Shown one piece after another: positions 42,369 to 58,692 of a DNA stretch of 64,000 nucleotides (within the stretch, counting starts at the first letter, position 1; every line of letters starts with the position of its first letter). This DNA comes from Trypanosoma brucei (taxonomy: Eukaryota). Both the position numbers and the translations under genes were made by a program. The stretch covers positions 448,001 to 512,000 of the forward strand of contig CP000069.1 in assembly GCA_000002445.1 (NCBI GenBank), in the 5' to 3' direction. A model generated the notes under the pieces. The model did no database searches. It was not told where the DNA came from and saw only the letters and a program-made list of their open reading frames with translations.

Positions 42369-43034
42369 CTATTCCTCTCCTGCACAACTCACATGTTCAC
42401 TTGACGCACTGTCATCCGCTGCAGCAAGTAACTGTTGTCTTCCAGGTGGTTTCTCTCCAGTCAATGCACCACAGAAGCTTACAGTTACTGGCAAAACGGG
42501 TCTGCCCACATCATCAAGAGGAACTGCCTCAAGTTTCTCTAGCAGTGAGAGATCATCAATGGCACGTCCAAACACAACTTGCTTGAAATCAAGAGATGGA
42601 GAAGGACCAAGTGTAATGCCAAATACGGAGCCACTTGTGTGAGGACCCTCAGAGATCATTGTGAGGAGCCCACGTTCCGTGTGTCGGTGACGGTATCCTT
42701 CATCCGCTATTGGTGTGCCAGTGGAGGAGAGGTTAAAGGAATCCAATTCACCCAACACAATGATATTATTGTTGTGATCCACATGATGCACTTGTGTGCC
42801 AAGGTAATCCAATTTCACACCCGTGTTGGTGTCAATCCCACATGACCCAGTGATTAATGCCCTGAAGTTTTCTACGGTTTGTGGCACTACATCGTCAAAG
42901 AGCTCAAATACCAGTCGTCCGCTGAGAACGTCATCAATAGACATATCCAGGAAGGCACGGCAGGAGTTCTGTTCCTCCTTCATGCGATGACTCCGCTGGT
43001 AATTTTCCCATTCCTTTAAGCGGTGCTGTCTCAC
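42369..43034 (-). CDS. Array unit 1: divergent cyclophilin-like protein (PPIase-fold, probably non-catalytic)
   Basis: Matches the cyclophilin core: VFELFDDVVPQTVENFRALITG versus CypA [23 protein letters not shown], and TMISEGPHTSGSVFGITLG versus SMANAGPNTNGSQFFICTA. The functional start is probably the internal Met at 42983 (MKEEQNSC..). Confidence 0.8.
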   Translation of the reverse strand: MRQHRLKEWENYQRSHRMKEEQNSCRAFLDMSIDDVLSGRLVFELFDDVVPQTVENFRALITGSCGIDTNTGVKLDYLGTQVHHVDHNNNIIVLGELDSFNLSSTGTPIADEGYRHRHTERGLLTMISEGPHTSGSVFGITLGPSPSLDFKQVVFGRAIDDLSLLEKLEAVPLDDVGRPVLPVTVSFCGALTGEKPPGRQQLLAAADDSASSEHVSCAGEE

Positions 43035-43581
43035 ATAATCTCATAATTTCCTAGTTTGCACTTTACAAAAGGACAAAAAAAAAAGTAAATATATTGACAC
43101 AACGAAGCACACTCCGTACCCATCCTCCCTCTATTGTTAGTTTCCCAACCAATATACTGCACATTATATGCACAGTAAACGTAAGCTAAAATATATAGAT
43201 ATCTGGTAACCGCAACTGGCGGTTGTAACACTAGTCAATACGGTGCACATAAATTTTATACGAGTTCTTACGAACAAAGTTATTCCATCAACAATATGAA
43301 ACACAAAATGATATATAAACACACAAGACAAACAAACCCCATCTCTGCCAAATGCACTTTTACATTTCTACGGGTGAGCCATTATTGGAGTCCCGTGGCA
43401 GTAAACACTATTACAAACATTATTGGGGGAAGCTTTGGAATAGGATATATAAGACAAGGAAATCAGTAACACAACACATTTGAATGCTTACATTAATTTA
43501 TAGAATATTGATGCGTATGATAACGTTGCGGCAAACAGTTTACATTGCAATATGCTTTTGAATCGTATTTCATTATGATAG

Positions 43582-44607
43582 TCAGATAAAACAGAGGGAT
43601 ACTGACAGTAACGTAATTTTGAGTGAGGGGGATGATGCAATATTCTGTTTTTGTGTTTGTGTGGGTTGAGCATCGGAATCCTTTCGTGCTGCAGTTTGGG
43701 GTGCTGTTCTCGAGGGTTGCGCACCTTCAGCTCCAGCTCCAGATTCCTTTAATGCCTTTACTTCCTCTTCATTTTTCGCTTTACCGTAAGTTCCCCTCAA
43801 CTTTTCGACTTGCTCTCTCAACTTTTGAAGAGCCTCATCTCTTCCCTTCATGTGGTCTGTTGCCTCATTCAAGTTCTTAACCCACGGCTTAGAAGTAAAT
43901 ATATCAGGCTCCTCCTCAGGCATTGGTGGACCGCCGGGCGGCGGGGGTGGTGGACCGTCATGTATTGGTTTTTCAGGATACAATCCTCGCAAACCCTCCA
44001 AGTCCTTTCTTATGGCATCAACAGTAACCTCAACTCTATTGATACCCTTTGTACATTTTCCCTTAAGTTCAACCCATGCCTGAAGACCGTCTTCGGCGTT
44101 TCCGTTCTGGCCATACTCTCGGGCTTTCCCGCTCCCAAGGCAGTAGTCGGTGGCCTCACCAACAGAGCTGCAAGTGCAGACAATTTCTTTTGGTAATGCT
44201 GGCCACTCGCTAGCTGGGTTACAGGGCTGGTTGCCCCCATGGGACCCAAACGTTTTGTCCGCATCCTCTTTTTCAATGTTTTCCCCATACGCTGCTTTTT
44301 GAAACGATGACCTGGCGCCATTTTCATGACTCTTTACTTCGTCTTCTAACTCTTTAACTTTATCCACCTCCGCTTTTAAAGCTGGTGAATCCCTGGCATC
44401 TTTATTAAACCACTGATAATCTTCGGTTTCTTTTAACTTATCGAGGTGACTTTTTTCTTTCGCTCCCTTTTCTGCCTTCGTGAAGAGTGAGCACAAGAGA
44501 TCAAATCCCTTTTTGTTTTTTTCATGGTCAACTGCGTTATCGTCTTGAGCTGTTATCCGCGTTACCAACACTCCCACCATGACCACTTTCATAATTACTC
44601 TCCACAT
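43582..44607 (-). CDS. Array unit 2: predicted GPI-anchored surface protein (341 aa)
   Basis: Same architecture and invariant C-terminus. The central domain and a shorter Pro hinge (GPPPPPPGGPPMPEEEP) differ from the other copies. Confidence 0.8.
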   Translation of the reverse strand: MWRVIMKVVMVGVLVTRITAQDDNAVDHEKNKKGFDLLCSLFTKAEKGAKEKSHLDKLKETEDYQWFNKDARDSPALKAEVDKVKELEDEVKSHENGARSSFQKAAYGENIEKEDADKTFGSHGGNQPCNPASEWPALPKEIVCTCSSVGEATDYCLGSGKAREYGQNGNAEDGLQAWVELKGKCTKGINRVEVTVDAIRKDLEGLRGLYPEKPIHDGPPPPPPGGPPMPEEEPDIFTSKPWVKNLNEATDHMKGRDEALQKLREQVEKLRGTYGKAKNEEEVKALKESGAGAEGAQPSRTAPQTAARKDSDAQPTQTQKQNIASSPSLKITLLSVSLCFI

Positions 44608-46251
44608 AGATGTATACCTTTATTATTCGTAATAACAACACAGTAAAAAATAATAGAACATTCATAATAAACACTACAATAATATCAAATCAATGTTGTC
44701 TATCATAACATTGCGTATATTATCCCACAGAGCAAGTGTTAATTTTAAACTCTCGGCAGAAAGTGATATATCTTGCACAGGCAGAGCAAACAGGCTGAAA
44801 TAAAATAGCACCCAACAGGCCATCTCCACAAGTTCACTATACACACAAGAATGATAAATTCACTCAGTTACTCAACAGATGCCAGATATTTGATTTCCCA
44901 TAAACTTTTTTTATTCCTTACTGCTCTAACTCTCTGAAAGGAATTTCCCTCATACAGTAGATTCAGCTGGGTCAAGAAGAGGCACACATCCCACCTCAAC
45001 TTTTTCACCTGCCCAATTTCGGTTTATTTCGGCCAGATACCTTATGATAATTCCCATACTCATATCATTATAGTCACACTTTCTCCATGTCCTCTCAGAC
45101 ACACAAACAAATCATGTTCCTCAATCTTCACATCGCTGTTAAAAACAACAACAGCAAAAAGAAAATACCCACGGTATATTCATTGCTATCTTGTTCCAAA
45201 GCTAGTTCCGTGACCGTAACGTCAGCGACATTCCCTACGAACACAAATATTATCATGTGATAAAAGAATTGGAAGGACACATTTCCTAATATGAAACCGC
45301 AAATCACTGAAACACAAATGTGTAAAGTGTCTAGGAATGGATATACAAAAGGTGGTGTTTAGTGAGGGAAGGATTATTAACTGCCACCCAGTGTGTCTAT
45401 TTCTTTACACCTCATTTCGTATATTGTCAACAATACAAAGTCTTATAAAACATACCATCAGTTGTTCTCCAATAAATATACGTTATACATGCCAATATCA
45501 CAGACACTGCAACATCCTCTTTCTTCAACACTTCAAATACGTAACTCATATACTACTTGCTAAATGTCTTAGTACCATATCCATGCCTCACTGAAGGGTT
45601 TGTGCCGTAACCCAATTAAATGTTGCTTCCTCTCCTCCTTCCATTTCCTCACAATATGATACGCAGAGCTGCAACTTTGTAATATGTGCGCAGTTGATGG
45701 GGACTTCAGTGGTTATCACTTTAAATTGCAAATGGAAATTCTGAAACAGTTCCAATACTCCCTCATGAATACCAACTAGTGTGTGTCTCCCATATACTAG
45801 CAGTTGTCATTACTGCAATGTTATGCTCAATGAGGATCTTTTTATTATCAAGTGTTAGCGCCAACTATTTTATTGTTCATGTCAGGCTCATATTCATGTA
45901 AGTGAAATGGGTGAAACTGTTCTTTTCCTTACTTTGCATTATATAAATAAGAGGAAATAAGGAATGCTTGTTAGAGGCACTCAACAGACACATACACATA
46001 TGAGAGTTTCCATCCAACAATACATACATATCCTTTAAATAGTCCACCAACTGGAGGATGACACCAGCAGGTCAGTGAGGGAAGCAGTATGTCTAGGAAT
46101 AATATAAAAGACACGTGTGACAAAATTTACATATTTGTTGCCTTGCTTTGCCTGCTGCGAATACCATATCACCTCCATCAGTAAAGTTACGGAATTCGGT
46201 AAACTTCCATGAATGCACATAAGCAACTGATACACACACTCTCTTCCCTTT

Positions 46252-46866
46252 CTATTCCTCTCCTGCACAACTCACATGTTCACTTGACGCACTGTCATCC
46301 GCTGCAGCAGGTACCTGTTGTCTTCCAGGTGGTTTCTCTCCAGTCAATGCACCACAGAAGCTTACAGTTACTGGCAAAACGGGTCTGTCCACATCATCAA
46401 GAGGAACTGCCTCAAGTTTCTCTAGCAGTGAGAGATCATCAATGGCACGTCCAAACACAACTTGCTTGAAATCAAGAGATGGAGAAGGACCAAGTGTAAT
46501 GCCAAATACGGAGCCACTTGTGTGAGGACCCTCAGAGATCATTGTGAGAAGCCCACGTTCCGTGTGTCGGTGACGGTATCCTTCATCCGCTATTGGTGTG
46601 CCAGTGGAGGAGAGGTTAAAGGAATCCAATTCACCCAACACAATGATATTATTGTTGTGATCCACATGATGCACTTGTGTGCCAAGGTAATCCAATTTCA
46701 CACCCGTGTTGGTGTCAATCCCACATGACCCAGTGATTAATGCCCTGAAGTTTTCTACGGTTTGTGGCACTACATCGTCAAAGAGCTCAAATACCAGTCG
46801 TCCGCTGAGAACGTCATCGATGGACATGTCCAGGAAGGCACGGCAGGAGTTCTGTTCCTCCTTCAT
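46252..46866 (-). CDS. Array unit 2: cyclophilin-like protein (204 aa; an in-frame TAA removes the N-terminal extension seen in the other copies)
   Basis: Starts at the Met that is internal in the other copies. Plus-strand 46888-46890 reads tta (minus TAA), where the other units have ttc (GAA). Confidence 0.8.
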   Translation of the reverse strand: MKEEQNSCRAFLDMSIDDVLSGRLVFELFDDVVPQTVENFRALITGSCGIDTNTGVKLDYLGTQVHHVDHNNNIIVLGELDSFNLSSTGTPIADEGYRHRHTERGLLTMISEGPHTSGSVFGITLGPSPSLDFKQVVFGRAIDDLSLLEKLEAVPLDDVDRPVLPVTVSFCGALTGEKPPGRQQVPAAADDSASSEHVSCAGEE

Positions 46867-47466
46867 GCGATGACTCCGCTGGTAATTTTACCATTCCTTT
46901 AAGCGGTGCTGTCTCACATTATTTCATAATTTCCTAATTTGCACTCTACAGCAGGACAAAAAAAAAAAAGAGGAAATATATTGACACAGCAAAGCACACT
47001 CAGTACCCATCCTCCCTCTATTGTTAGTCTCCACACCAATATATTGCCCATTATATGCACAGGAAACGTAAGCTAAAATATATATAGATATCCGGTAACC
47101 GCAACTGGCGGTTGCAACAGTAGCCAACACGGTACACATAAATGTTTTAAGTTCTTACGAACAAAGTTATTCCATCAATAATATGAAACACAAAATGGCA
47201 TAAACACACAAGACAAACAAACCCCATCTCTGCCAAATGCACTTTTACATTTCTGTGGGTGAGCCATTATTGGAGTCCCGTGGCAGTAAACACTATTACA
47301 AACATTATTCGGAGAAGCTTTGAAATAAGATATATAAGACAAGGAAATCAGTAACACAACACATTTGAATGCTTACATTAGTTTATAGAATATTGATGCG
47401 TATGATAGCGTTGCGGCAAACAGTTTACATTGCAATATGCTTTTGAATCGTTCCTTATTATGATAG

Positions 47467-48504
47467 TCAGATAAAACAGAGGGATACTGATAGTAACGTA
47501 ATTTTGAGTGAGGGAAATGATGCAATATTCTGTTTTTGTGTTTGTGTTTGTGTGGGTTGAGGATCGGAATCCTTTCGTGCTGCAGTTTGGGGTGCTGTTC
47601 TCGAGGGTTGCACACCTTCAGCTCCAGCTCCAGATTCCTTTAATGCCTTTACTTCCTCTTCATTTTTCGCTCTACCGTAAGTTCCCTTCAGCCTTTTAAC
47701 TTTCTCCTTCAAGTTTTCCAGCGCTGCATCTCTCTTATTCATATGGCTCATCGCCTCATCTAACCGCTTAACCCATGGCTTAGAAGCAAGAGGATCAGGC
47801 CTTTCAGGTATTTGTAGTGGTGAACTGTCTGGTGGTGGTGGTGATGGTGGTGGTGGGGGTGGTGGGGGTGGTGGGGAATCAACTTCCTGGTCTTCTGAAT
47901 ACAATCCTCGCAAATTCTCCAAGTCTTTTCTTATGGCTTCAATAGTAACCTCAACTCTTTCGCTATCCTTTGTACACCTGCTCTTAACTCCATACCATGC
48001 CTGTAGACCGTCTTCCGCTGTCCCGCTTTGGTCATGGCCATAACTTCGAGCCTTCCCGCTCCCAAGGCAGTAGTCGGTGGCCTCGCCAACAGAGCTGCAA
48101 ATGCAGACAATTTCTTTTGGTATTGTTGGCCACTCACTAGCTGGGTTACAGGGCTGGTTGCCCCCATGGGATCCAAAAGTTTTGTCCGCATCCTCTTTTT
48201 CAATGTTTTCCCCATACGCTGCTTTCCGAAACGCTGTCCTGGCATTATTTTCATGACTCTGCACTTCGCTTTCTAACTCTTTCACCTTTTCCGTCTCCGT
48301 TTTCAGAGTCGATGAATCTCTAGCATGTTTCAACTTACCGATGTAGTTTTCTCCTTTTGCTCCCTCTGCCGCCTTCGTGAAGAGCGAGCACAAAATATCA
48401 AACATCTTCTCGTTTTTGCCATGGTTCCTCCAGCTGTCCTCGCCGACAGTAACCTGCGATACCAACACTCCCACCATGACCACTTGCATAAATGATCGCC
48501 ACAT
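47467..48504 (-). CDS. Array unit 3: predicted GPI-anchored surface protein (345 aa)
   Basis: Longest Pro hinge (SPPPPPPPPPPSPPPPDSSP). The central domain resembles unit 2; the post-hinge segment resembles unit 1. Confidence 0.8.
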   Translation of the reverse strand: MWRSFMQVVMVGVLVSQVTVGEDSWRNHGKNEKMFDILCSLFTKAAEGAKGENYIGKLKHARDSSTLKTETEKVKELESEVQSHENNARTAFRKAAYGENIEKEDADKTFGSHGGNQPCNPASEWPTIPKEIVCICSSVGEATDYCLGSGKARSYGHDQSGTAEDGLQAWYGVKSRCTKDSERVEVTIEAIRKDLENLRGLYSEDQEVDSPPPPPPPPPPSPPPPDSSPLQIPERPDPLASKPWVKRLDEAMSHMNKRDAALENLKEKVKRLKGTYGRAKNEEEVKALKESGAGAEGVQPSRTAPQTAARKDSDPQPTQTQTQKQNIASFPSLKITLLSVSLCFI

Positions 48505-50097
48505 TGTTGTCTTTCTTCACTGTAAACAACAGCACAGAGAAAAACAGCATTCATATTAAACACTACCGTAAAATCAAATAAATGCTGTCTACCTTAAAAC
48601 ATGCACATGTATTATCCCACAGATCAAATATTAATTTTCAACCATCGGCATAAAAAGATATGCCTTTCGTAGGCAGAGCAAACAAACTAACATAACATCC
48701 AACAAGCCACCTCAACAAGCTCACTATACACGAGGATAGTAAATTCGTCAAATCACTATACAGATGCCATCGTCGTCATTTCCCTCATACAGTAGATTCA
48801 GCTGGGTCAAAAAGAGACACACATCCCACATCAAGTCTTTCACCTGCCTTATCCTGGTGTATTTCAATCACTCAACCTCTGACAATTGCTATATTCATAT
48901 TCTTTTGGTTACACTTTCTTAATATCCTCTCAGATACACGAGCACATCACATTGCTTATCTTTACATGGCAATCCAAAATAACAACAGAACCAAAATGCA
49001 CACAGTAAACTTCTTGACACCTGAGGCCGCTCCCACTCCAATCTCGAGGGCCTTAACATCAGAGACACTCTTGACTAACACTAATACTATTGTGTGATAA
49101 AAGAATTGGAAGGATACATTTCCTAACATGACACCGAAAATTACTGAAACACAAATGTGTAAAGTGTCTATGGATGGAAATGCAAAATATGTGGTGTTTA
49201 GTAAGGGAAGGATTATTAACTGCCACCCGGAGTGTATATTTCGTTTAACCTCACTCTGCATATTCTGAACAATACCAAATCTTATAAAACACACCACCAG
49301 TTGTTCTCCAATAAATATACGTTATACATGCCAATATCACAAACACTGCAACATCCTCTTTCTTCAACACTTCAAATACGTAACTCATATATCACTTGCT
49401 AAAGGTCTTAGTACCATATCCATGCCTCACTGAAGGGTTCGTGCCCCTACCCAATTAAATGTTGCTTCCTCTCCTCCTTCCATTTCCTCACAATATGATA
49501 CGCAGAGCTGCAACTTTGTAATATGTGCGCAGTTGATGGGGACTTCAGCCGTTATCACTTTAAATTGCAAATGGAAATTCTGAAACAATTCCAATACTCC
49601 CTCATGAATACCAACTGTTGCGTGTGTGTCTCCCATATACCGGCAGTTGCCATTACTGCAATGTTATGCTCAATGAGGATCTTTTTAATATCAAGTGTTA
49701 ACGGCAACTATTTTATTGTTCATGTCAGGCTCATATTCATGTAAGTGAAATGGGTGAAACTGTTCTTTTCCTTACTTTGCATTATATAAATAAGAGGAAA
49801 TAAGGGATGCTTGTTAGAGGCACGCAACAGACACATACACATATGAGAGTTTCCATCCAACAATACATACATACCCTTTAAATAGTCCACCAACTGGAGG
49901 ATGACACCAGCATGTCAGTGAGGGAAGCAGTATGTCTAGGAATAACATAAAAGACACGCGTGAAGGAATTTACATATTTGTTGCCTTGCTTTGCCTGCTG
50001 CTACGAATACCATATCACCTCCATCAGTAAAGTTACGGAATTCGGTAAACTTCCATGAATGCACATAAGCAACTGATACACACACACTTTTCCCTTC

Positions 50098-50763
50098 CTA
50101 TTCCTCTCCTGCACAACTCACATGTTCACTTGACGCACTGTCATCCGCTGCAGCAAGTAACTGTTGTCTTCCAGGTGGTTTCTCTCCAGTCAATGCACCA
50201 CAGAAGCTTACAGTTACTGGCAAAACGGGTCTGCCCACATCATCAAGAGGAACTGCCTCAAGTTTCTCTAGCAGTGAGAGATCATCAATGGCACGTCCAA
50301 ACACAACTTGCTTGAAATCAAGAGATGGAGAAGGACCAAGTGTAATGCCAAATACGGAGCCACTTGTGTGAGGACCCTCAGAGATCATTGTGAGGAGCCC
50401 ACGTTCCGTGTGTCGGTGACGGTATCCTTCATCCGCTATTGGTGTGCCAGTGGAGGAGAGGTTAAAGGAATCCAATTCACCCAACACAATGATATTATTG
50501 TTGTGATCCACATGATGCACTTGTGTGCCAAGGTAATCCAATTTCACACCCGTGTTGGTGTCAATCCCACATGACCCAGTGATTAATGCCCTGAAGTTTT
50601 CTACGGTTTGTGGCACTACATCGTCAAAGAGCTCAAATACCAGTCGTCCGCTGAGAACGTCATCAATAGACATATCCAGGAAGGCACGGCAGGAGTTCTG
50701 TTCCTCCTTCATGCGATGACTCCGCTGGTAATTTTCCCATTCCTTTAAGCGGTGCTGTCTCAC
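50098..50763 (-). CDS. Array unit 3: cyclophilin-like protein
   Basis: Same 221-aa ORF translation as units 1 and 4. Confidence 0.8.
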   Translation of the reverse strand: MRQHRLKEWENYQRSHRMKEEQNSCRAFLDMSIDDVLSGRLVFELFDDVVPQTVENFRALITGSCGIDTNTGVKLDYLGTQVHHVDHNNNIIVLGELDSFNLSSTGTPIADEGYRHRHTERGLLTMISEGPHTSGSVFGITLGPSPSLDFKQVVFGRAIDDLSLLEKLEAVPLDDVGRPVLPVTVSFCGALTGEKPPGRQQLLAAADDSASSEHVSCAGEE

Positions 50764-51316
50764 ATTATTTCATAATTTCCTAATTTGCACTCTACAGCAG
50801 GACAAAAAAAAAAAAGAGGAAATATATTGACACAGCAAAGCACACTCAGTACCCATCCTCCCTCTATTGTTAGTCTCCACACCAATATATTGCCCATTAT
50901 ATGCACAGGAAACGTAAGCTAAAATATATATAGATATCCGGTAACCGCAACTGGCGGTTGTAACACTAGTCAATACGGTGCACATAAATTTTATACGAGT
51001 TCTTACGAACAAAGTTATTCCATCAACAATATGAAACACAAAATGATATATAAACACACAAGACAAACAAACCCCATCTCTGCCAAATGCACTTTTACAT
51101 TTCTACGGGTGAGCCATTATTGGAGTCCCGTGGCAGTAAACACTATTACAAACATTATTGGGGGAAGCTTTGGAATAGGATATATAAGACAAGGAAATCA
51201 GTAACACAACACATTTGAATGCTTACATTAATTTATAGAATATTGATGCGTATGATAACGTTGCGGCAAACAGTTTACATTGCAATATGCTTTTGAATCG
51301 TTCCTTATTATGATAG

Positions 51317-52360
51317 TCAGATAAAACAGAGGGATACTGATAGTAACGTAATTTTGAGTGAGGGGGATGATGCAATATTCTGTTTTTGTGTTTGTGTGGG
51401 TTGAGCATCGGAATCCTTTCGTGCTGCAGTTTGGGGTGCTGTTCTCGAGGGTTGCGCACCTTCAGCTCCAGCTCCAGATTCCTTTAATGCCTTTACTTCC
51501 TCTTCATTTTTCGCTTTACCGTAAGTTCCCCTCAACTTTTCGACTTGCTCTCTCAACTTTTGAAGAGCCTCATCTCTTCCCTTCATGTGGTCTGTTGCCT
51601 CATTCAAGTTCTTAACCCACGGCTTAGAAGTAAATATATCAGGCTCCTCCTCAGGCATTGGTGGACTGCCAGGTGGGAACGGAGGTGGCGGTGGTGGCGG
51701 TGGAGGTTCTTGGCCTTTTGAGTCGTCTGAATACAAACCCCTCAAACCCTCCAAGTCCTTTTCTATAGCTTCGACAGTAACCTCGGCACTGCTGCTGGCA
51801 CTCGTACATTTTCCCTTAACTCCATTCCATGCCTGTAGACGCTGTTCAGCCGTGGTATCGTCGTGATTTCGGGCATTCTCGCTCCCACCGAAGCAGCTTT
51901 CAGTGGCACCTTGTGTGGGGCTGCAACTACAGATGATACTGTTAGGTATCGTTGACCATCGGTTTGTTTCGTCGCATGGATTGCCTACTGTATGGTGTCC
52001 AAAAGTTTTGTCCGCGTCCTCTTCTTCAATGTTATCCCCATAGGCTGCTTTCCGAAACGCTGTCTTGGCGCCACTTTCATGGCTCTGCACTTTGTTTTCT
52101 AACTCTTTAACTTTATCCACCTCCGCTTTTAAAGCTGGTGAATCCCTGGCATCTTTATTAAACCACTGATAATCTTCGGTTTCTTTTAGCTTATCGAGGT
52201 GACTTTTTTCTTTCGCTCCCTTTTCTGCCTTCGTGAAGAGTGAGCACAAGAGATCAAATCCCTTCTTGTCTTTCTCGTGGTCAATCCAGTCATTCTTTCC
52301 CATTGCAACTCCCGTTACCAACACTCCCACCATGACCACTTTCATAATTACTCTCCACAT
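51317..52360 (-). CDS. Array unit 4: predicted GPI-anchored surface protein (347 aa)
   Basis: Near-identical to unit 5, with about 6 amino-acid differences. Confidence 0.8.
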   Translation of the reverse strand: MWRVIMKVVMVGVLVTGVAMGKNDWIDHEKDKKGFDLLCSLFTKAEKGAKEKSHLDKLKETEDYQWFNKDARDSPALKAEVDKVKELENKVQSHESGAKTAFRKAAYGDNIEEEDADKTFGHHTVGNPCDETNRWSTIPNSIICSCSPTQGATESCFGGSENARNHDDTTAEQRLQAWNGVKGKCTSASSSAEVTVEAIEKDLEGLRGLYSDDSKGQEPPPPPPPPPFPPGSPPMPEEEPDIFTSKPWVKNLNEATDHMKGRDEALQKLREQVEKLRGTYGKAKNEEEVKALKESGAGAEGAQPSRTAPQTAARKDSDAQPTQTQKQNIASSPSLKITLLSVSLCFI

Positions 52361-53987
52361 AGATGTATACCTTTATTATTCGTAATAACAACACAGTAAA
52401 AAATAATAGAACATTAATATTAAACACTACAGTAATATCAAATCAATGTTGTCTATCATAACATTGCGTATATTATCCCACAGAGCAGTTATTACTGTTT
52501 AACTCTCAGCAGAAAGTGATATGCCATTCATAGGCAGAGCATGCAAACTAACATAACATCCAACAAGCCATCTCCACAAGCTCACTATACACGAGGATAG
52601 TAAATTCACGAAGTCACTTTACAGATGCCATCGTCGTGATTTCCCTCAATCTTTTTTTATTCCTTACTGCTCTAACTCTCTGAAAGGAATTTCCCTCATA
52701 CAGTAGATTCAGCTGGGTCAAAAAGAGGCACACATCCCACATCAAGTCTTTCACCTGCCTTATCCTGGTGTATTTCAACCACACACCTTCTAGGAATATT
52801 CATATATAATTATAGTCACACTTTCTCCATGTCCTCTCAGACACAAGAACAAATCATGATCCTCTACTTTTACATCACTATTAAATGAACAGCAAAAAGA
52901 AAATACACACAATATATTCATTGATATATGGTTCCCACTGCTGGTTCCGTGACCGTAATGTCAGTGACACATTTTACGAACACAAATACTATGATAAAAG
53001 AATTGGAAGGACACATTTCCTAACATGACACCGAAAATTACTGAAACACAAATGTGTAAAGTGTCTATGGATGGAAATGCAAAATATGTGGTGTTTAGTA
53101 AGGGAAGGATTATTAGCTGCCACCCGGAGTGTATATTTCTTTACACCTCATTTCGTATCTTGTCAACAATACAAAGTCTTATAAAACACACCACCAGTTG
53201 TTCTCCAATAAATATACGTTATACATGCCAATATCACAGACACTGCAACATCCTCTTTCTTCAACACTTCAAATACGTAACTCATATATCACTTGCTAAA
53301 GGTCTTAGTACCATATCCATGCCTCACTGAAGGGTTTGTGCCGTAACCCAATTAAATGTTGCTTCCTCTCCTCCTTCCATTTCCTCACAATATGATACGC
53401 AGAGCTGCAACTTTGTAATATGTGCGCAGTTGATGGGGACTTCAGTGGTTATCACTTTAAATTGCAAATGGAAATTCTGAAACAGTTCCAATACTCCCTC
53501 ATGAATACCAACTAGTGTGTGTCTCCCATATACTAGCAGTTGTCATTACTGCAATGTTATGCTCAATGAGGATCTTTTTATTATCAAGTGTTAGCGCCAA
53601 CTATTTTATTGTTCATGTCAGGCTCATATTCATGTAAGTGAAATGGGTGAAACTGTTCTTTTCCTTACTTTGCATTATATAAATAAGAGGAAATAAGGAA
53701 TGCTTGTTAGAGGCACTCAACAGACACATACACATATGAGAGTTTCCATCCAACAATACATACATATCCTTTAAATAGTCCACCAACTGGAGGATGACAC
53801 CAGCAGGTCAGTGAGGGAAGCAGTATGTCTAGGAATAATATAAAAGACACGTGTGACAAAATTTACATATTTGTTGCCTTGCTTTGCCTGCTGCGAATAC
53901 CATATCACCTCCATCAGTAAAGTTACGGAATTCGGTAAACTTCCATGAATGCACATAAGCAACTGATACACACACACTTTTCCCTTC

Positions 53988-54653
53988 CTATTCCTCTCCT
54001 GCACAACTCACATGTTCACTTGACGCACTGTCATCCGCTGCAGCAAGTAACTGTTGTCTTCCAGGTGGTTTCTCTCCAGTCAATGCACCACAGAAGCTTA
54101 CAGTTACTGGCAAAACGGGTCTGCCCACATCATCAAGAGGAACTGCCTCAAGTTTCTCTAGCAGTGAGAGATCATCAATGGCACGTCCAAACACAACTTG
54201 CTTGAAATCAAGAGATGGAGAAGGACCAAGTGTAATGCCAAATACGGAGCCACTTGTGTGAGGACCCTCAGAGATCATTGTGAGGAGCCCACGTTCCGTG
54301 TGTCGGTGACGGTATCCTTCATCCGCTATTGGTGTGCCAGTGGAGGAGAGGTTAAAGGAATCCAATTCACCCAACACAATGATATTATTGTTGTGATCCA
54401 CATGATGCACTTGTGTGCCAAGGTAATCCAATTTCACACCCGTGTTGGTGTCAATCCCACATGACCCAGTGATTAATGCCCTGAAGTTTTCTACGGTTTG
54501 TGGCACTACATCGTCAAAGAGCTCAAATACCAGTCGTCCGCTGAGAACGTCATCAATAGACATATCCAGGAAGGCACGGCAGGAGTTCTGTTCCTCCTTC
54601 ATGCGATGACTCCGCTGGTAATTTTCCCATTCCTTTAAGCGGTGCTGTCTCAC
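53988..54653 (-). CDS. Array unit 4: cyclophilin-like protein
   Basis: Same 221-aa ORF translation as units 1 and 3. Confidence 0.8.
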   Translation of the reverse strand: MRQHRLKEWENYQRSHRMKEEQNSCRAFLDMSIDDVLSGRLVFELFDDVVPQTVENFRALITGSCGIDTNTGVKLDYLGTQVHHVDHNNNIIVLGELDSFNLSSTGTPIADEGYRHRHTERGLLTMISEGPHTSGSVFGITLGPSPSLDFKQVVFGRAIDDLSLLEKLEAVPLDDVGRPVLPVTVSFCGALTGEKPPGRQQLLAAADDSASSEHVSCAGEE

Positions 54654-55202
54654 ATAATCTCATAATTTCCTAGTTTGCACTTTACAAAAGGACAAAAAAA
54701 AAAGTAAATATATTGACACAACGAAGCACACTCCGTACCCATCCTCCCTCTATTGTTAGTTTCCCAACCAATATACTGCACATTATATGCACAGTAAACG
54801 TAAGCTAAAATATATATAGATATCTGGTAACCGCAACTGGCGGTTGTAACACTAGTCAATACGGTGCACATAAATTTTATACGAGTTCTTACGAACAAAG
54901 TTATTCCATCAACAATATGAAACACAAAATGATATATAAACACACAAGACAAACAAACCCCATCTCTGCCAAATGCACTTTTACATTTCTACGGGTGAGC
55001 CATTATTGGAGTCCCGTGGCAGTAAACACTATTACAAACATTATTGGGGGAAGCTTTGGAATAGGATATATAAGACAAGGAAATCAGTAACACAACACAT
55101 TTGAATGCTTACATTAATTTATAGAATATTGATGCGTATGATAACGTTGCGGCAAACAGTTTACATTGCAATATGCTTTTGAATCGTATTTCATTATGAT
55201 AG

Positions 55203-56246
55203 TCAGATAAAACAGAGGGATACTGACAGTAACGTAATTTTGAGTGAGGGGGATGATGCAATATTCTGTTTTTGTGTTTGTGTGGGTTGAGCATCGGAAT
55301 CCTTTCGTGCTGCAGTTTGGGGTGCTGTTCTCGAGGGTTGCGCACCTTCAGCTCCAGCTCCAGATTCCTTTAATGCCTTTACTTCCTCTTCATTTTTCGC
55401 TTTACCGTAAGTTCCCTTTAACTTTTTGACTTGCTCTCTCAACTTTTGAAGAGCCTCATCTCTTCCCTTCATGTGGTCTGTTGCCTCATTCAAGTTCTTA
55501 ACCCATGGCTTAGAAGCAAATTGATCAGGCTTCTCCTCAGGCATTGGTGGACTGCCAGGTGGGAACGGAGGTGGCGGTGGTGGCGGTGGAGGTTCTTGGC
55601 CTTTTGAGTCGTCTGAATACAAAGCCCTCAAACCCTCCAAGTCCTTTTCTATAGCTTCGACAGTAACCTCGGCACTGCTGCTGGCACTCGTACATTTTCC
55701 CTTAACTCCATTCCATGCCTGTAGACGCTGTTCAGCCGTGGTATCGTCGTGATTTCGGGCATTCTCGCTCCCACCGAAGCAGCTTTCAGTGGCACCTTGT
55801 GTGGGGCTGCAACTACAGATGATACTGTTAGGTATCGTTGACCATCGGTTTGTTTCGTCGCATGGATTGCCTACTGTATGGTGTCCAAAAGTTTTGTCCG
55901 CGTCCTCTTCTTCAATGTTATCCCCATAGGCTGCTTTCCGAAACGCTGTCTTGGCGCCACTTTCATGGCTCTGCACTTTGTTTTCTAACTCTTTAACTTT
56001 ATCCACCTCCGCTTTTAAAGCTGGTGAATCCCTGGCATCTTTATTAAACCACTGATAATCTTCGGTTTCTTTTAGCTTATCGAGGTGACTTTTTTCTTTC
56101 GCTCCCTTTTCTGCCTTCGTGAAGAGTGAGCACAAGAGATCAAATCCCTTCTTGTCTTTCTCGTGGTCAATCCAGTCATTCTTTCCCATTGCAACTCCCG
56201 TTACCAACACTCCCACCATGACCACTTTCATAATTACTCTCCACAT
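55203..56246 (-). CDS. Array unit 5: predicted GPI-anchored surface protein (347 aa)
   Basis: See unit 4. Confidence 0.8.
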   Translation of the reverse strand: MWRVIMKVVMVGVLVTGVAMGKNDWIDHEKDKKGFDLLCSLFTKAEKGAKEKSHLDKLKETEDYQWFNKDARDSPALKAEVDKVKELENKVQSHESGAKTAFRKAAYGDNIEEEDADKTFGHHTVGNPCDETNRWSTIPNSIICSCSPTQGATESCFGGSENARNHDDTTAEQRLQAWNGVKGKCTSASSSAEVTVEAIEKDLEGLRALYSDDSKGQEPPPPPPPPPFPPGSPPMPEEKPDQFASKPWVKNLNEATDHMKGRDEALQKLREQVKKLKGTYGKAKNEEEVKALKESGAGAEGAQPSRTAPQTAARKDSDAQPTQTQKQNIASSPSLKITLLSVSLCFI

Positions 56247-57873
56247 AGATGTATACCTTTATTATTCGTAATAACAACACAGTAAAAAATAATAGAACAT
56301 TAATATTAAACACTACAGTAATATCAAATCAATGTTGTCTATCATAACATTGCGTATATTATCCCACAGAGCAGTTATTACTGTTTAACTCTCAGCAGAA
56401 AGTGATATGCCATTCATAGGCAGAGCATGCAAACTAACATAACATCCAACAAGCCATCTCCACAAGCTCACTATACACGAGGATAGTAAATTCACGAAGT
56501 CACTTTACAGATGCCATCGTCGTGATTTCCCTCAATCTTTTTTTATTCCTTACTGCTCTAACTCTCTGAAAGGAATTTCCCTCATACAGTAGATTCAGCT
56601 GGGTCAAAAAGAGGCACACATCCCACATCAAGTCTTTCACCTGCCTTATCCTGGTGTATTTCAACCACACACCTTCTAGGAATATTCATATATAATTATA
56701 GTCACACTTTCTCCATGTCCTCTCAGACACAAGAACAAATCATGATCCTCTACTTTTACATCACTATTAAATGAACAGCAAAAAGAAAATACACACAATA
56801 TATTCATTGATATATGGTTCCCACTGCTGGTTCCGTGACCGTAATGTCAGTGACACATTTTACGAACACAAATACTATGATAAAAGAATTGGAAGGACAC
56901 ATTTCCTAACATGACACCGAAAATTACTGAAACACAAATGTGTAAAGTGTCTATGGATGGAAATGCAAAATATGTGGTGTTTAGTAAGGGAAGGATTATT
57001 AGCTGCCACCCGGAGTGTATATTTCTTTACACCTCATTTCGTATCTTGTCAACAATACAAAGTCTTATAAAACACACCACCAGTTGTTCTCCAATAAATA
57101 TACGTTATACATGCCAATATCACAGACACTGCAACATCCTCTTTCTTCAACACTTCAAATACGTAACTCATATATCACTTGCTAAAGGTCTTAGTACCAT
57201 ATCCATGCCTCACTGAAGGGTTTGTGCCGTAACCCAATTAAATGTTGCTTCCTCTCCTCCTTCCATTTCCTCACAATATGATACGCAGAGCTGCAACTTT
57301 GTAATATGTGCGCAGTTGATGGGGACTTCAGTGGTTATCACTTTAAATTGCAAATGGAAATTCTGAAACAGTTCCAATACTCCCTCATGAATACCAACTA
57401 GTGTGTGTCTCCCATATACCGGCAGTTGCCATTACTGCAATGTTATGCTCAATGAGGATCTTTTTATTATCAAGTGTTAGCGCCAACTATTTTATTGTTC
57501 ATGTCAGGCTCATATTCATGTAAGTGAAATGGGTGAAACTGTTCTTTTCCTTACTTTGCATTATATAAATAAGAGGAAATAAGGGATGCTTGTTAGAGGC
57601 ACGCAACAGACACATACACATATGAGAGTTTCCATCCAACAATACATACATATCCTTTAAATAGTCCACCAACTGGAGGATGACACCAGCAGGTCAGTGA
57701 GGGAAGCAGTATGTCTAGGAATAATATAAAAGACACGTGTGACAAAATTTACATATTTGTTGCCTTGCTTTGCCTGCTGCGAATACCATATCACCTCCAT
57801 CAGTAAAGTTACGGAATTCGGTAAACTTCCATGAATGCACATAAGCAACTGATACACACACACTTTTCCCTTC

Positions 57874-58692
57874 CTATTCCTCTCCTGCACAACTCACATG
57901 TTCACTTGACGCACTGTCATCCGCTGCAGCAGGTACCTGTTGTCTTCCAGGTGGTTTCTCTCCAGTCAATGCACCACAGAAGCTTACAGTTACTGGCAAA
58001 ACGGGTCTGCCCACATCATCAAGAGGAACTGCCTCAAGTTTCTCTAGCAGTGAGAGATCATCAATAGCACGTCCAAACACAACTTGCTTGAAATCAAGAG
58101 ATGGAGAAGGACCAAGTGTAATGCCAAATACGGAGCCACTTGTGTGAGGACCCTCAGAGATCATTGTGAGAAGCCCACGTTCCGTGTGTCGGTGACGGTA
58201 TCCTTCATCCGCTATTGGTGTGCCAGTGGAGGAGAGGTTAAAGGAATCCAATTCACCCAACACAATGATATTATTGTTGTGATCCACATGATGCACTTGT
58301 GTGCCAAGGTAATCCAATTTCACACCCGTGTTGGTGTCAATCCCACATGACCCAGTGATTAATGCCCTGAAGTTTTCTACGGTTCGCGGCACTACATCGT
58401 CAAAGAGTTCAAATACCAGTCGTCCGCTGAGAACGTCATCAATGGACATATCCAGGAAGGCACGGCAGGAGTTCTGTTCCTCCTTCATGCGATGACTCCG
58501 CTGGTAATTTTCCCATTCTTTTAAACGGCGCTCCTCCACATCGTCGTAACGACTCTGAAGTGTCGCAGAGTCTTCATCATTTTCTGGTCGTTGTAACCTC
58601 GAATCTCCCTTTTTCCTGCGGGAGTGCCGTACACCTTCTAGTTTTGTCGTTGACATCAAAACAATCACTAGGCCTATTCCGCGCTGAAGCAA
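57874..58692 (-). CDS. Array unit 5 (first in transcription order): cyclophilin-like protein with a unique 68-aa N-terminal extension (272-aa ORF)
   Basis: Same core as the other copies with two substitutions (Q to R in VVPRTVENF; QQVPAAADD). The upstream part lies outside the repeat and so carries unique sequence. The true start may still be the internal Met at 58488. Confidence 0.75.
   Translation of the reverse strand: MLQRGIGLVIVLMSTTKLEGVRHSRRKKGDSRLQRPENDEDSATLQSRYDDVEERRLKEWENYQRSHRMKEEQNSCRAFLDMSIDDVLSGRLVFELFDDVVPRTVENFRALITGSCGIDTNTGVKLDYLGTQVHHVDHNNNIIVLGELDSFNLSSTGTPIADEGYRHRHTERGLLTMISEGPHTSGSVFGITLGPSPSLDFKQVVFGRAIDDLSLLEKLEAVPLDDVGRPVLPVTVSFCGALTGEKPPGRQQVPAAADDSASSEHVSCAGEE

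What the first reader, a model, noticed from the sequence alone, without database searches (positions are those of the whole stretch)
42369..58692. Cyclophilin-like paralogs appear to have lost canonical PPIase catalytic residues yet are kept more than 98% identical
Aligning by eye to cyclophilin A gives several substitutions. The region equivalent to FHRIIPGFMCQGGD reads VHHVDHNNNIIVLGELD, so Arg55 and probably Gln63 are not conserved. SMANAGPNTNG becomes TMISEGPHTSG, so Asn102 is replaced by Glu. WLDGKHVVFG becomes SLDFKQVVFG, so Trp121 and His126 are not conserved. The cyclophilin fold signature is otherwise clear. This suggests a pseudo-PPIase, perhaps a binding or chaperone module. All five copies are nearly identical, which points to concerted evolution or purifying selection, in sharp contrast to the neighbouring surface genes.
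Basis: partly seen in the sequence, partly recalled or inferred. Interest (0 to 1): 0.65.

Follow-up and report, generated by a model that had tools for sequence, protein, structure and literature searches.

The report
Degenerate cyclophilin copies in Fam1 array
This is a known Trypanosoma brucei chromosome 6 tandem repeat in which one full-length and four 5'-truncated copies of an ancient, probably non-catalytic cyclophilin (CYP9 type) were co-amplified with a variable surface gene, so it is real but largely already described.

Summary
The window is T. brucei TREU927 chromosome 6. The five cyclophilin-like ORFs are real (Pfam PF00160, E about 1e-24). They are at least 98.7% identical over their shared 615 nt.

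A profile alignment to human CypA confirms loss of the active site: R55H, F60N, M61I, Q63V, A101I, N102S, A103E, Q111V, F113G, W121S, H126Q. Only L122 is kept.

The degeneracy is old. It is shared by the whole kinetoplastid CYP9 orthogroup, and Yau et al. 2010 already tabulated it for Leishmania LmaCyP9.

The near-identity is mainly concerted evolution:
- dS between copies is 0-0.035.
- That equals the divergence of the non-coding flanks (2-2.4%).
- The adjacent Fam1 N-domains in the same repeat units have dS 0.4-0.77.
- Purifying selection is a modest overlay (7 synonymous to 4 non-synonymous changes, dN/dS about 0.2).

Only the first copy is complete (260 aa). The repeat junction lies inside the CDS, so the other four (204 aa from Met57) lack the family's invariant N-terminal RRLKEW helix.

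Jackson et al. 2010 and 2013 described the array, which T. b. gambiense and T. evansi do not have. Verdict: ordinary and already known, with a few new details.

The parts
57874..58656 (-). Full-length CYP9-type cyclophilin-like gene (260 aa; NCBI XP_845262). It is the first gene of the array in the direction of transcription and the only copy with the N-terminal helix.
   Evidence: 100% identical to P0001; accessions. ATG at 58656. AF2 model with helix 27-54 and cyclophilin domain 64-229.
53988..54602 (-). 5'-truncated cyclophilin copy (204 aa from Met57). Its CDS is identical to the copies at 50098 and 42369.
   Evidence: (XP_845254, three identical entries).
50098..50712 (-). 5'-truncated cyclophilin copy (204 aa).
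46252..46866 (-). 5'-truncated cyclophilin copy (204 aa; XP_845256). It carries G216D at a Gly that is at least 90% conserved, and a TAA at remnant codon 49 upstream of Met57.
42369..42983 (-). 5'-truncated cyclophilin copy (204 aa).
54603..54703 (-). Repeat junction; equivalents are at 50713-50813, 46867-46967 and 42984-43084. It holds a T-rich (polypyrimidine) tract followed by AG dinucleotides, the junction ATGTGAGACAGCACCGC, and remnant codons 40-56 with no in-frame ATG. Three out-of-frame ATGs lie within 61 nt of Met57.
58526..58541 (-). Site in the intact gene (codons about 39-44, ATGTGGAGGAGCGCCG) that corresponds to the duplication breakpoint.
39097..39112 (-). Distal end of the array. 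ATGATGTGGAACGTGG is the start of ORF 38546-39112 and shares the microhomology ATGTG(G)A with the breakpoint in the cyclophilin CDS.
53188..53987 (-). Non-coding flank downstream of the cyclophilin copy (one example of five). It is homogenised like the CDS, with mean pairwise divergence 2.0-2.4%.
55203..56246 (-). Fam1 gene: a type-b VSG-like, GPI-anchored surface protein (347 aa).
   Evidence: PF13206.. PMC3605285.
51317..52360 (-). Fam1 gene (347 aa). Its N-domain has no synonymous difference from the copy at 55203.
47467..48504 (-). Fam1 gene (345 aa) with a divergent N-domain.
43582..44607 (-). Fam1 gene (341 aa) with a divergent N-domain.
39653..40708 (-). Fam1 gene (351 aa). It is the last in the transcription direction and belongs to the most divergent repeat unit.
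58899..59588 (-). Conserved upstream neighbour (229 aa, no Pfam family). It serves as the synteny anchor with T. vivax and T. congolense.
36320..37252 (+). Convergent membrane-protein gene (310 aa). Its T. congolense homologue lies directly after CYP9, which marks the ancestral convergent strand-switch.

Best explanation
The window holds the T. brucei TREU927 chromosome 6 Fam1/cyclophilin tandem array. Five repeat units of about 3.85-3.89 kb span roughly 58541 to 39110 on the minus strand.

The ancestral gene is a single-copy kinetoplastid cyclophilin of the CYP9 type (LmaCyP9 / TbgCyP29). It is the last conserved gene of a polycistron before a convergent strand-switch. A lineage-specific VSG-like surface gene (Fam1) lies just downstream.

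A tandem duplication then took place. One breakpoint fell inside the cyclophilin CDS (codons about 39-46). The other fell at the start of the ORF just beyond Fam1, with ATGTG(G)A microhomology between the two. This amplified a unit made of the 3' three-quarters of the cyclophilin gene, its 3' flank, Fam1 and the Fam1 3' flank.

So only the first cyclophilin is complete (260 aa). The four downstream copies are 5'-truncated and can only start at Met57. They lack the orthogroup's invariant N-terminal helix motif.

Gene conversion or recent duplication keeps one part of the unit homogeneous. That part is about 2.3 kb and runs from the Fam1 C-terminal end through the junction and the cyclophilin CDS into about 800 bp of its 3' flank. 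The Fam1 5' flank and N-domain keep deep divergence.

The protein itself has an intact cyclophilin fold of the divergent-loop type but a dismantled active site. It is most likely a non-catalytic binding or scaffold protein. Its family-specific conserved parts are the N-terminal helix (ERRLKEWENYQRSHR) and the C-terminal FCGALTGxKPPG segment, not the old proline-binding groove.

Shown: anatomy, junction, divergence pattern, residue mapping, orthology, synteny. Inferred: lack of PPIase activity, scaffold function, and passenger status of the truncated copies.
For: - Identity and annotation: (XP_845262 of 260 aa; XP_845254 and XP_845256 of 204 aa).
- Repeat structure.
- Junction inside the CDS, in-frame stops upstream, no ATG before Met57, E41R/E42Q/R43H in the remnant codons, and a TAA at codon 49 in one copy.
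- N-terminal R43, R44, E47 and W48 are invariant in 37 orthologs.
- Active-site mapping. Family-wide loss.
- Fold.
- Divergence: cyclophilin CDS 0.85%, 3' flanks 2.0-2.4%, Fam1 5' flank 16.6%, Fam1 CDS nt 1-600 22%.
- Substitution rates: cyclophilin dS 0-0.035 and dN/dS 0.12-0.23. Fam1 N-domain dS 0.40-0.77 and dN/dS 0.39-0.48.
- Between species, synonymous sites are saturated while dN is 0.16-0.23. The orthogroup is therefore under strong constraint.
- Single copy with a conserved upstream neighbour in T. vivax and T. congolense. A different gene follows: an HpHbR-family gene in T. vivax, and a convergent homologue of the 36320-37252 ORF in T. congolense.
- Literature: PMC2854126 Table 1 (3865-bp unit, 2 genes, 5 copies; PPIase distance 0.0068 against 0.1564 for the hypothetical protein). 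PMC3605285 (Fam1). PMC4288722 (Tb927.6.1310-.1390 duplication absent from T. evansi and T. b. gambiense). PMC2894131 Table 2 (LmaCyP9 substitutions).
- From established knowledge (Zydowsky et al. 1992, recalled, not read here): single CypA mutants R55A, F60A, F113A and H126Q each retain 3% or less of activity.
Against: - No enzymatic, expression or localisation data were obtainable here, so 'non-catalytic' is a sequence inference.
- The four truncated ORFs are all intact. A T-rich (polypyrimidine) tract and AG dinucleotides lie upstream. The 11 substitutions among copies are biased towards synonymous changes (p=0.006). This fits some selection on the truncated copies rather than pure passenger status.
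- Fam1 N-domain dS of 0.4-0.77 is hard to reconcile with a duplication younger than the T. b. brucei / T. b. gambiense split. The history of the array (old and lost elsewhere, or imported segments) is unresolved.
- The exact breakpoint is blurred: 7 differences fall within the 20 nt after the microhomology.
Confidence: 0.8

Rival explanations
1. All five copies are functional. They are retained by selection for a higher dose of a non-catalytic cyclophilin domain. The 204-aa products translated from Met57 are active in their own right.
For: - All four truncated ORFs are open, and three are identical.
- Among the copies there are 7 synonymous and 4 non-synonymous changes. dN/dS is about 0.2, and non-synonymous sites are less diverged than the flanks (Fisher p=0.0005).
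- A T-rich (polypyrimidine) tract and AG dinucleotides lie upstream of each junction.
- They are annotated as genes.
Against: - They lack R43, R44, E47 and W48, which are invariant in the orthogroup.
- The remnant codons upstream of Met57 have decayed, and one copy has a stop there.
- Three out-of-frame ATGs precede Met57. One opens an ORF that overlaps the Met57 start.
- Synonymous and non-coding divergence are equal, so identity mainly reflects recent homogenisation.
- The gene is single-copy in T. b. gambiense, T. evansi, T. vivax and T. congolense (PMC4288722).
- Only 11 changes underlie the dN/dS estimate, and several are shared between copies.
Confidence: 0.2
2. CYP9 is the kinetoplastid counterpart of PPIL6/RSP12, the 'probably inactive' cyclophilin of axonemal radial spokes. 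On this view it works as a structural axonemal subunit.
For: - PPIL6 is the top single-sequence PDB hit (101.6 bits) and ranks second in Foldseek (8j07_S).
- UniProt localisation for LmaCyP9 is 'Axoneme and cytoplasm', as relayed in a table of PMC11357558.
- Both proteins have degenerate active sites and the divergent-loop insertion.
Against: - The margin over PPIH is 1.4 bits. With the family profile PPIH ranks first and PPIL6 seventh.
- CYP9 has a helix of about 30 residues where PPIL6 has an N-terminal domain of about 140 aa.
- LmaCyP12 (335 aa, cyclophilin domain at 150-330, also 'axoneme') fits the PPIL6 architecture better (PMC2894131 Table 1; recalled PPIL6 architecture).
- No solved structure contains this protein.
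- No paper links it to radial spokes.
Confidence: 0.1
3. The protein is still a working PPIase that uses a non-canonical set of active-site residues.
For: - The fold and many core residues are intact.
- His54 and Leu122 are kept.
- Some orthologs keep Arg55.
Against: - Eleven of the twelve alignable functional positions are changed at once. These include R55, F60, F113 and H126, each individually near-essential in CypA (Zydowsky 1992, recalled).
- These positions vary freely among orthologs, while other positions are invariant. That is the opposite of what a conserved catalytic site would show.
Confidence: 0.05
4. The near-identical copies are an assembly artefact of a collapsed or over-expanded repeat.
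For: Three CDS copies are identical. Jackson 2010 cautions that the copy number of assembled repeats can be arbitrary (PMC2854126).
Against: Each unit carries a distinct Fam1 sequence, unit-specific indels and unit lengths of 3846-3890 bp. Four distinct Fam1 isoforms were reported independently (PMC2854126 Table 1).
Confidence: 0.02

Closest known systems
Kinetoplastid cyclophilin CYP9 orthogroup (Leishmania major LmaCyP9 / LmjF.30.0020; T. b. gambiense TbgCyP29 / Tbg972.6.1040)
   Same: - The 260-aa copy is 258/260 identical to Tbg972.6.1040.
- It is 46-76% identical (alignment A1; up to 79% in local BLASTP) to proteins named cyclophilin 9 or cyclophilin in Leptomonas, Lotmaria, Novymonas, T. 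cruzi, T. vivax and T. congolense.
- It shares the same N-terminal RRLKEWENYQ helix, divergent-loop KLDY, C-terminal CGALTGxxPPG and degenerate active site.
- The LmaCyP9 substitutions were published in PMC2894131 Table 2.
   Different: TREU927 alone, among the genomes seen here, has four extra copies, and these are truncated at Met57. African trypanosomes have His at position 55, where the T. cruzi clade and many deep members keep Arg.
T. brucei TREU927 chromosome 6 Fam1 / PPIase segmental duplication (Jackson et al. 2010 Table 1 and Fig. S3; Jackson et al. 2013 Fam1; array Tb927.6.1310-.1390)
   Same: It is the same locus: a unit of about 3865 bp, two genes, five copies, a near-identical PPIase and a divergent GPI-anchored hypothetical protein (PMC2854126, PMC3605285, PMC4288722).
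   Different: Several points are not stated in the text I could read:
- the breakpoint inside the cyclophilin CDS;
- the loss of the invariant N-terminal motif in four copies;
- the equality of cyclophilin dS and flank divergence, against Fam1 dS of 0.4-0.77.

The individual gene numbers of the cyclophilins (presumably .1320-.1400) are my inference.
Catalytically degenerate human cyclophilins (PPIL6, and from memory CWC27/SDCCAG10, PPIL2, RANBP2 cyclophilin domain; Davis et al. 2010)
   Same: All have a cyclophilin fold with substituted catalytic or cyclosporin-contact residues and a presumed binding or scaffold role. PPIL6 is among the best sequence and structure matches.
   Different: There is no evidence of orthology. 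The N-terminal architecture differs. CYP9 has lost more of the site than PPIL6, which keeps Arg55 and Gln63 in the aligned sequence.
Divergent-loop cyclophilins (Cyp40, PPIH/SnuCyp-20, C. elegans Cyp3)
   Same: It has an 8-residue insertion (IDTNTGVK) where CypA has none, between helix 1 and strand 3. These proteins are the top profile and Foldseek matches.
   Different: Those proteins keep the full catalytic set and are active PPIases. CYP9 does not keep it.

Membership tests
Cyclophilin-type PPIase domain (Pfam PF00160) | Profile match above the curated threshold over the whole domain | tested here: met
   86.9-88.6 bits against a cutoff of 21.7, profile positions 1-158 of 159.
Cyclophilin-type PPIase domain (Pfam PF00160) | Eight-stranded beta-barrel with two helices, superposable on solved cyclophilins | tested here: met
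   AF2 pLDDT 85, and above 90 across the domain. Foldseek target-normalised TM 0.86-0.93, rmsd 1.3-1.9 A, E about 1e-18.
Active cyclophilin PPIase (CypA-like enzyme) | Catalytic residues Arg55, Phe60, Gln63, Asn102, Phe113, His126 | tested here: not met
   the six positions carry H, N, V, S, G and Q; the same loss is seen across the orthogroup.
Active cyclophilin PPIase (CypA-like enzyme) | Cyclosporin-binding Trp121 and contact residues Met61, Ala101, Ala103, Gln111 | tested here: not met
   W121S, M61I, A101I, A103E, Q111V.
Active cyclophilin PPIase (CypA-like enzyme) | Measured prolyl isomerase activity | not testable with these tools
   This needs a recombinant protein assay.
Kinetoplastid CYP9 orthogroup | Closest relatives are CYP9-labelled proteins, with conserved synteny | tested here: met
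   E 1e-64 to 1e-115; the upstream 229-aa gene is 81-86% identical and adjacent in T. vivax and T. congolense.
Kinetoplastid CYP9 orthogroup | Invariant N-terminal helix motif (R43, R44, E47, W48 in RRLKEWENYQ) | tested here: inconclusive
   The 260-aa copy meets it. The four 204-aa copies do not, because they begin at Met57.
PPIL6 / RSP12 axonemal inactive cyclophilin | Specific (reciprocal-best) similarity to PPIL6 over other cyclophilins | tested here: not met
   PPIL6 leads by only 1.4 bits. PPIH ranks first and PPIL6 seventh with the family profile.
PPIL6 / RSP12 axonemal inactive cyclophilin | N-terminal domain of about 140 aa preceding the cyclophilin domain | tested here: not met
   the CYP9 domain starts at residue about 64, after a single helix (27-54). 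In PPIL6 chains the domain starts at about 139.
PPIL6 / RSP12 axonemal inactive cyclophilin | Stable radial-spoke or axoneme location | not testable with these tools
   The only evidence is a database annotation for LmaCyP9 relayed in PMC11357558.
Divergent-loop cyclophilins | Insertion of 7-8 residues between helix 1 and strand 3, relative to CypA | tested here: met
   an 8-residue insertion opposite the CypA gap between Phe46 and Gly47.

The most novel reading that the evidence does not exclude
CYP9 may define a kinetoplastid-wide, possibly broader, class of non-catalytic cyclophilins. About 40 clusters at 50% identity carry the N-terminal helix. In this class the working surface would have moved from the proline groove to the invariant N-terminal ERRLKEWENYQRSHR helix and the C-terminal LTGxKPPG tail, perhaps as an axoneme-docking module. 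In strain TREU927, the four helix-less copies would then be expressed as free cyclophilin domains that modulate or compete with the full-length protein.
Probability: 0.12. Interest if true: 0.45.

Novelty: already known. Interest (0 to 1): 0.2.

Why it matters
It matters little beyond housekeeping. The locus is a textbook-style example of a mosaic tandem repeat in a trypanosome. One part is homogenised: the cyclophilin, its flanks and the Fam1 C-terminal end. Another part, the exposed Fam1 N-domain, stays deeply divergent. This shows that near-identity of a hitch-hiking gene need not mean selection on that gene.

For cyclophilin biology, it adds a clean residue map and a family-wide view of one more dead-enzyme cyclophilin lineage. 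It shows that the conserved parts lie outside the old active site, which tells an experimenter where to look.

It also corrects two points for annotators. Four of the five 'cyclophilin-type PPIase, putative' genes of TREU927 are 5'-truncated. The five-copy expansion credited to LmaCyP5 in Yau et al. 2010 appears to be this CYP9 array.

Tried and rejected
1. My first guess was that the surface genes were MISP (Fam50, chromosome 7). I rejected it. The MISP paper gives different gene IDs and a different signal peptide, and says the intervening genes are hypothetical. The genes here are Fam1.
2. PPIL6/RSP12 orthology was suggested by the top PDB hit. The profile search and the domain architecture do not support it. 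Literature searches found no link.
3. The exact-sequence contig look-up for the T. brucei protein returned nothing. Context came from the window itself and from the T. vivax and T. congolense loci instead.
4. Searches for the presumed cyclophilin gene IDs (Tb927.6.1320-.1400.1230-.1290) found no paper discussing these genes. I therefore did not confirm the cyclophilin gene numbers.
5. The bacterial promoter/terminator scan does not apply to a trypanosome, and I ignored it.
6. The Rfam scan of the window found nothing.
7. The AFDB50 fold library was unavailable.
8. Between-species dS could not be estimated because synonymous sites are saturated.
9. A MAFFT --add alignment shifted the 58-63 loop by one residue relative to hhalign. 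I report the hhalign register and note that the conclusion does not depend on it.
10. I could not analyse where the N-terminal helix packs on the domain, because model coordinates are not returned.

Full report
**Source and anatomy**

The longest cyclophilin-like ORF, read from its first ATG (57874-58656, minus strand, 260 aa), is 100% identical to the NCBI protein 'cyclophilin-type peptidyl-prolyl cis-trans isomerase, putative' of Trypanosoma brucei brucei TREU927. That protein sits on a 1,618,915-bp contig. A bacterial-style ORF list gave GTG/TTG starts. With eukaryotic ATG starts, the five copies are:

- 57874-58656, 260 aa (XP_845262);
- 53988-54602, 50098-50712 and 42369-42983, 204 aa each and identical (XP_845254);
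- 46252-46866, 204 aa (XP_845256).

They alternate with five genes of 341-351 aa. Those genes have a signal peptide, a proline tract, a GPI-type C-terminus and a Pfam VSG_B hit. Self-comparison shows five tandem units of 3846-3890 bp.

**Checking the observation**

Each copy matches PF00160 over profile positions 1-158 of 159, at 87-89 bits against a threshold of 21.7. An AlphaFold2 model built on 37 orthologs has mean pLDDT 85, and above 90 through the domain. It shows a long helix (residues 27-54) followed by the cyclophilin barrel (64-229). Foldseek superposes the model on solved cyclophilins with target-normalised TM 0.86-0.93 and rmsd 1.3-1.9 A. The fold is therefore not in doubt.

It gives:

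| CypA position | Residue here |
|---|---|
| H54 | H (kept) |
| R55 | H |
| F60 | N |
| M61 | I |
| Q63 | V |
| G72 | falls in a deleted turn |
| A101 | I |
| N102 | S |
| A103 | E |
| Q111 | V |
| F113 | G |
| W121 | S |
| L122 | L (kept) |
| H126 | Q |

phmmer alignments to PDB cyclophilins agree. The call at N102 is off by one: it is Ser, and the Glu is at position 103. The 58-63 loop has a one-residue insertion, and MAFFT shifts its register by one. The segment HNNNIIVLGE contains no Phe, Met or Gln, so the conclusion holds in any register.

From established knowledge (Zydowsky et al. 1992, recalled, not read here), single CypA mutants R55A, F60A, F113A and H126Q each retain 3% or less of activity. 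Combining all of them makes PPIase activity very unlikely. That remains an inference.

**The degeneracy is old and already tabulated**

A database search returned 58 relatives across Trypanosoma, Leishmania, Leptomonas, Phytomonas, Angomonas and unnamed metagenomic or transcriptomic sources. Several of them are named 'cyclophilin 9 (CYP9)'. In a 37-sequence alignment the former active-site positions are substituted everywhere and vary freely. H126Q and N102S are nearly universal.

Arg55 survives in the T. cruzi clade and in many deep members. It is lost in the T. brucei, T. congolense, T. vivax and T. grayi sequences (His) and in the sequences from Leishmania and its relatives (mostly Leu).

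An exhaustive profile search found about 40 clusters (at 50% identity) that also match the N-terminal helix, with scores of 200-370 bits. Generic cyclophilins start matching only at the domain, at or below about 187 bits. Some of the helix-bearing relatives keep more of the site. P0070, for example, has H54, R55, A101, N102 and F113. This points to stepwise decay.

What is invariant in the family falls into three groups:

- the N-terminal motif (R43, R44, E47, W48, within ERRLKEWENYQRSHR);
- the divergent-loop D115-Y116;
- fold-core glycines and aromatics, plus the C-terminal CGALTGxxP segment.

Yau et al. 2010 list LmaCyP9 (LmjF30.0020) with 11 of 13 CypA functional residues changed. They conclude that such members 'may carry different enzymatic activities' (PMC2894131, Table 2). 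The pseudo-enzyme idea is thus supported by my analysis, but it is not new.

**Why the copies are so alike**

I aligned the five units and scored each segment.

| Segment | Variable sites | Mean pairwise divergence |
|---|---|---|
| Cyclophilin CDS | 11 of 615 | 0.85% |
| Next 800 bp, non-coding | 33 | 2.0-2.4% |
| Fam1 3' flank | not tallied here | 5.4% |
| Fam1 CDS nt 601-end | not tallied here | 12.5% |
| Fam1 5' flank | not tallied here | 16.6% |
| Fam1 CDS nt 1-600 | not tallied here | 22% |

Nei-Gojobori estimates give cyclophilin dS of 0-0.035, dN of 0-0.0065 and dN/dS of 0.12-0.23. The Fam1 N-domains have dS of 0.40-0.77 and dN/dS of 0.39-0.48, apart from one pair with no synonymous difference.

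Synonymous divergence of the cyclophilin copies equals that of the adjacent non-coding DNA (Fisher p=0.66). It is 10-25 times lower than the synonymous divergence of the gene next door in the same repeat unit. So the difference between neighbours is mostly a difference in coalescence time. A block of about 2.3 kb has been homogenised recently. It runs from the Fam1 C-terminal end through the junction and the cyclophilin into its 3' flank. The Fam1 5' flank and N-domain have not been homogenised. This is concerted evolution by partial gene conversion or unequal exchange.

Purifying selection is a visible but small overlay. Seven of the 11 changes are synonymous, where 24% would be expected (binomial p=0.006). 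Non-synonymous sites are less diverged than the flanks (p=0.0005). Two of the four replacements fall in the disordered C-terminal tail. One is R/Q at a position that varies among orthologs. One is G216D, at a conserved Gly, in a single copy.

At the orthogroup level constraint is strong. Synonymous sites are saturated between T. brucei, T. congolense and T. vivax, while dN is 0.16-0.23.

**The copies are not equivalent**

The unit boundary lies inside the cyclophilin CDS. Upstream of codon about 40, the four downstream copies are no longer homologous to the intact gene. They match instead the sequence that follows the last Fam1 gene. The switch occurs at a shared ATGTG(G)A, which at the array's end is the start of ORF 38546-39112.

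In these copies:

- the remnant codons 40-56 carry E41R, E42Q and R43H;
- there are in-frame stops just upstream, and in one copy a TAA at codon 49;
- there is no in-frame ATG before Met57;
- three out-of-frame ATGs lie within 61 nt upstream of Met57;
- the nearest of these, and in two copies also the farthest, opens a 25-36-codon ORF that overlaps the Met57 start.

The junction does bring a T-rich (polypyrimidine) tract and AG dinucleotides, so trans-splicing is plausible. Any product would still lack the motif that is invariant in every ortholog.

T. b. gambiense has a single 260-aa gene that is 258/260 identical. The tandem duplication Tb927.6.1310-.1390 is reported absent from T. b. gambiense and T. 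evansi (PMC4288722). T. vivax and T. congolense each show one copy. I therefore read the four short copies as passengers of the Fam1 amplification. A minority possibility is that they are expressed.

**Genomic logic**

In T. vivax and T. congolense the gene upstream of CYP9 is the ortholog of the window's 229-aa gene, at 81-86% identity.

The genes downstream differ by species:

- T. congolense has a convergent gene that is 34% identical to the window's plus-strand ORF 36320-37252.
- T. vivax has an HpHbR-family gene.
- T. brucei has Fam1.

CYP9 is thus the last conserved gene before a convergent strand-switch, a place where lineage-specific surface genes have settled. This explains why its 3' part was caught in the repeat.

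**What is already published**

- Jackson et al. 2010 list this locus: Tbg972.6.1030, unit 3865 bp, 2 genes, 5 copies, PPIase distance 0.0068 with no unique isoform, and hypothetical protein distance 0.1564 with 4 unique isoforms. They discuss it as segmental duplication with divergence of a GPI-anchored protein (PMC2854126).
- Jackson et al. 2013 name the surface family Fam1, derive it from b-type VSG and localise Tb927.6.1310 to the flagellar pocket (PMC3605285).
- Savage et al. 2012 detect its transcript in salivary-gland and metacyclic forms (PMC3378594).
- A 2024 review lists Tbg972.6.1040 as TbgCyP29. It lists LmjF.30.0020 (CYP9) with the database localisation 'Axoneme and cytoplasm' (PMC11357558).

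**Function**

The best-supported reading is a non-catalytic cyclophilin-fold protein that acts by binding. Its conserved N-terminal helix and C-terminal tail are the family-specific surfaces.

A link to the axonemal 'inactive' cyclophilin PPIL6/RSP12 was suggested by the top PDB hit. The evidence is weak:

- the margin over PPIH is 1.4 bits;
- the family profile ranks PPIH first and PPIL6 seventh;
- the N-terminal architecture differs;
- no solved structure contains this protein.

I give that reading about 10%.

**Verdict**

Both halves of the story, the degenerate CYP9 site and the Fam1/PPIase array with its contrasting divergence, are in the literature.

The new details here are the breakpoint inside the CDS, the loss of the invariant helix in four copies, the equality of dS and flank divergence, and the family-wide residue map.

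Interest is low (0.2). Novelty: already known.

Noticed in passing
window 42369-58656 (the five cyclophilin copies): Yau et al. [quoted passage not shown] The five-copy array here matches CYP9-labelled orthologs and the LmaCyP9 substitution pattern, not the fully canonical LmaCyP5. That sentence is probably a mislabel.
   Followed up: partly
window 55203-56246 and 51317-52360: These two Fam1 genes have 0 synonymous and 1 non-synonymous difference in the N-domain. All other Fam1 pairs have dS 0.40-0.77. The array therefore mixes one very recent duplication with deep lineages. This is hard to square with an origin after the split from T. b. gambiense.
   Followed up: partly
window 36320-37252 (+); L003 5914-6939: A 310-aa plus-strand ORF with a signal peptide and a C-terminal transmembrane segment has no Pfam family. 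It is 34% identical to the T. congolense gene that converges on CYP9. This marks an ancestral convergent strand-switch into which Fam1 was inserted. T. vivax has an HpHbR-family gene at the same place.
   Followed up: partly
window 54603-54663, 50713-50773, 46867-46927, 42984-43044: Each truncated copy has three out-of-frame ATGs within 61 nt upstream of Met57. The nearest of them, and in two copies also the farthest, opens a 25-36-codon ORF that overlaps the Met57 start codon. This would be expected to depress translation of the 204-aa ORF.
   Followed up: no
window 46252-46925: This copy alone carries G216D, at a Gly conserved in at least 90% of orthologs. It also has a TAA at remnant codon 49. 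Both are possible signs of decay.
   Followed up: no
window 27632-36319: About 8.7 kb has no ORF of 150 aa or more except 32027-32581. GC skew changes sign near 32 kb. No Rfam family matches anywhere in the window. This may be a strand-switch region or degenerate repeat DNA. I did not examine it.
   Followed up: no
window 58899-59588 (-): This 229-aa protein is 81-86% identical in T. vivax and T. congolense but matches no Pfam family. It is a strongly conserved trypanosome protein of unknown function.
   Followed up: no
window 38546-39112 (-): This 188-aa ORF (MMWNVALRV...) has a start codon region that supplies the microhomology at the distal breakpoint of the array. It has no Pfam match. I did not check whether it is a real gene.
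   Followed up: no
Fam1 genes, e.g. window 55203-56246: The proline tract and the Thr-Gln repeat near the C-terminus vary in length between Fam1 copies. The last 100 or so residues, including the GPI signal, are almost invariant (alignment).
   Followed up: no
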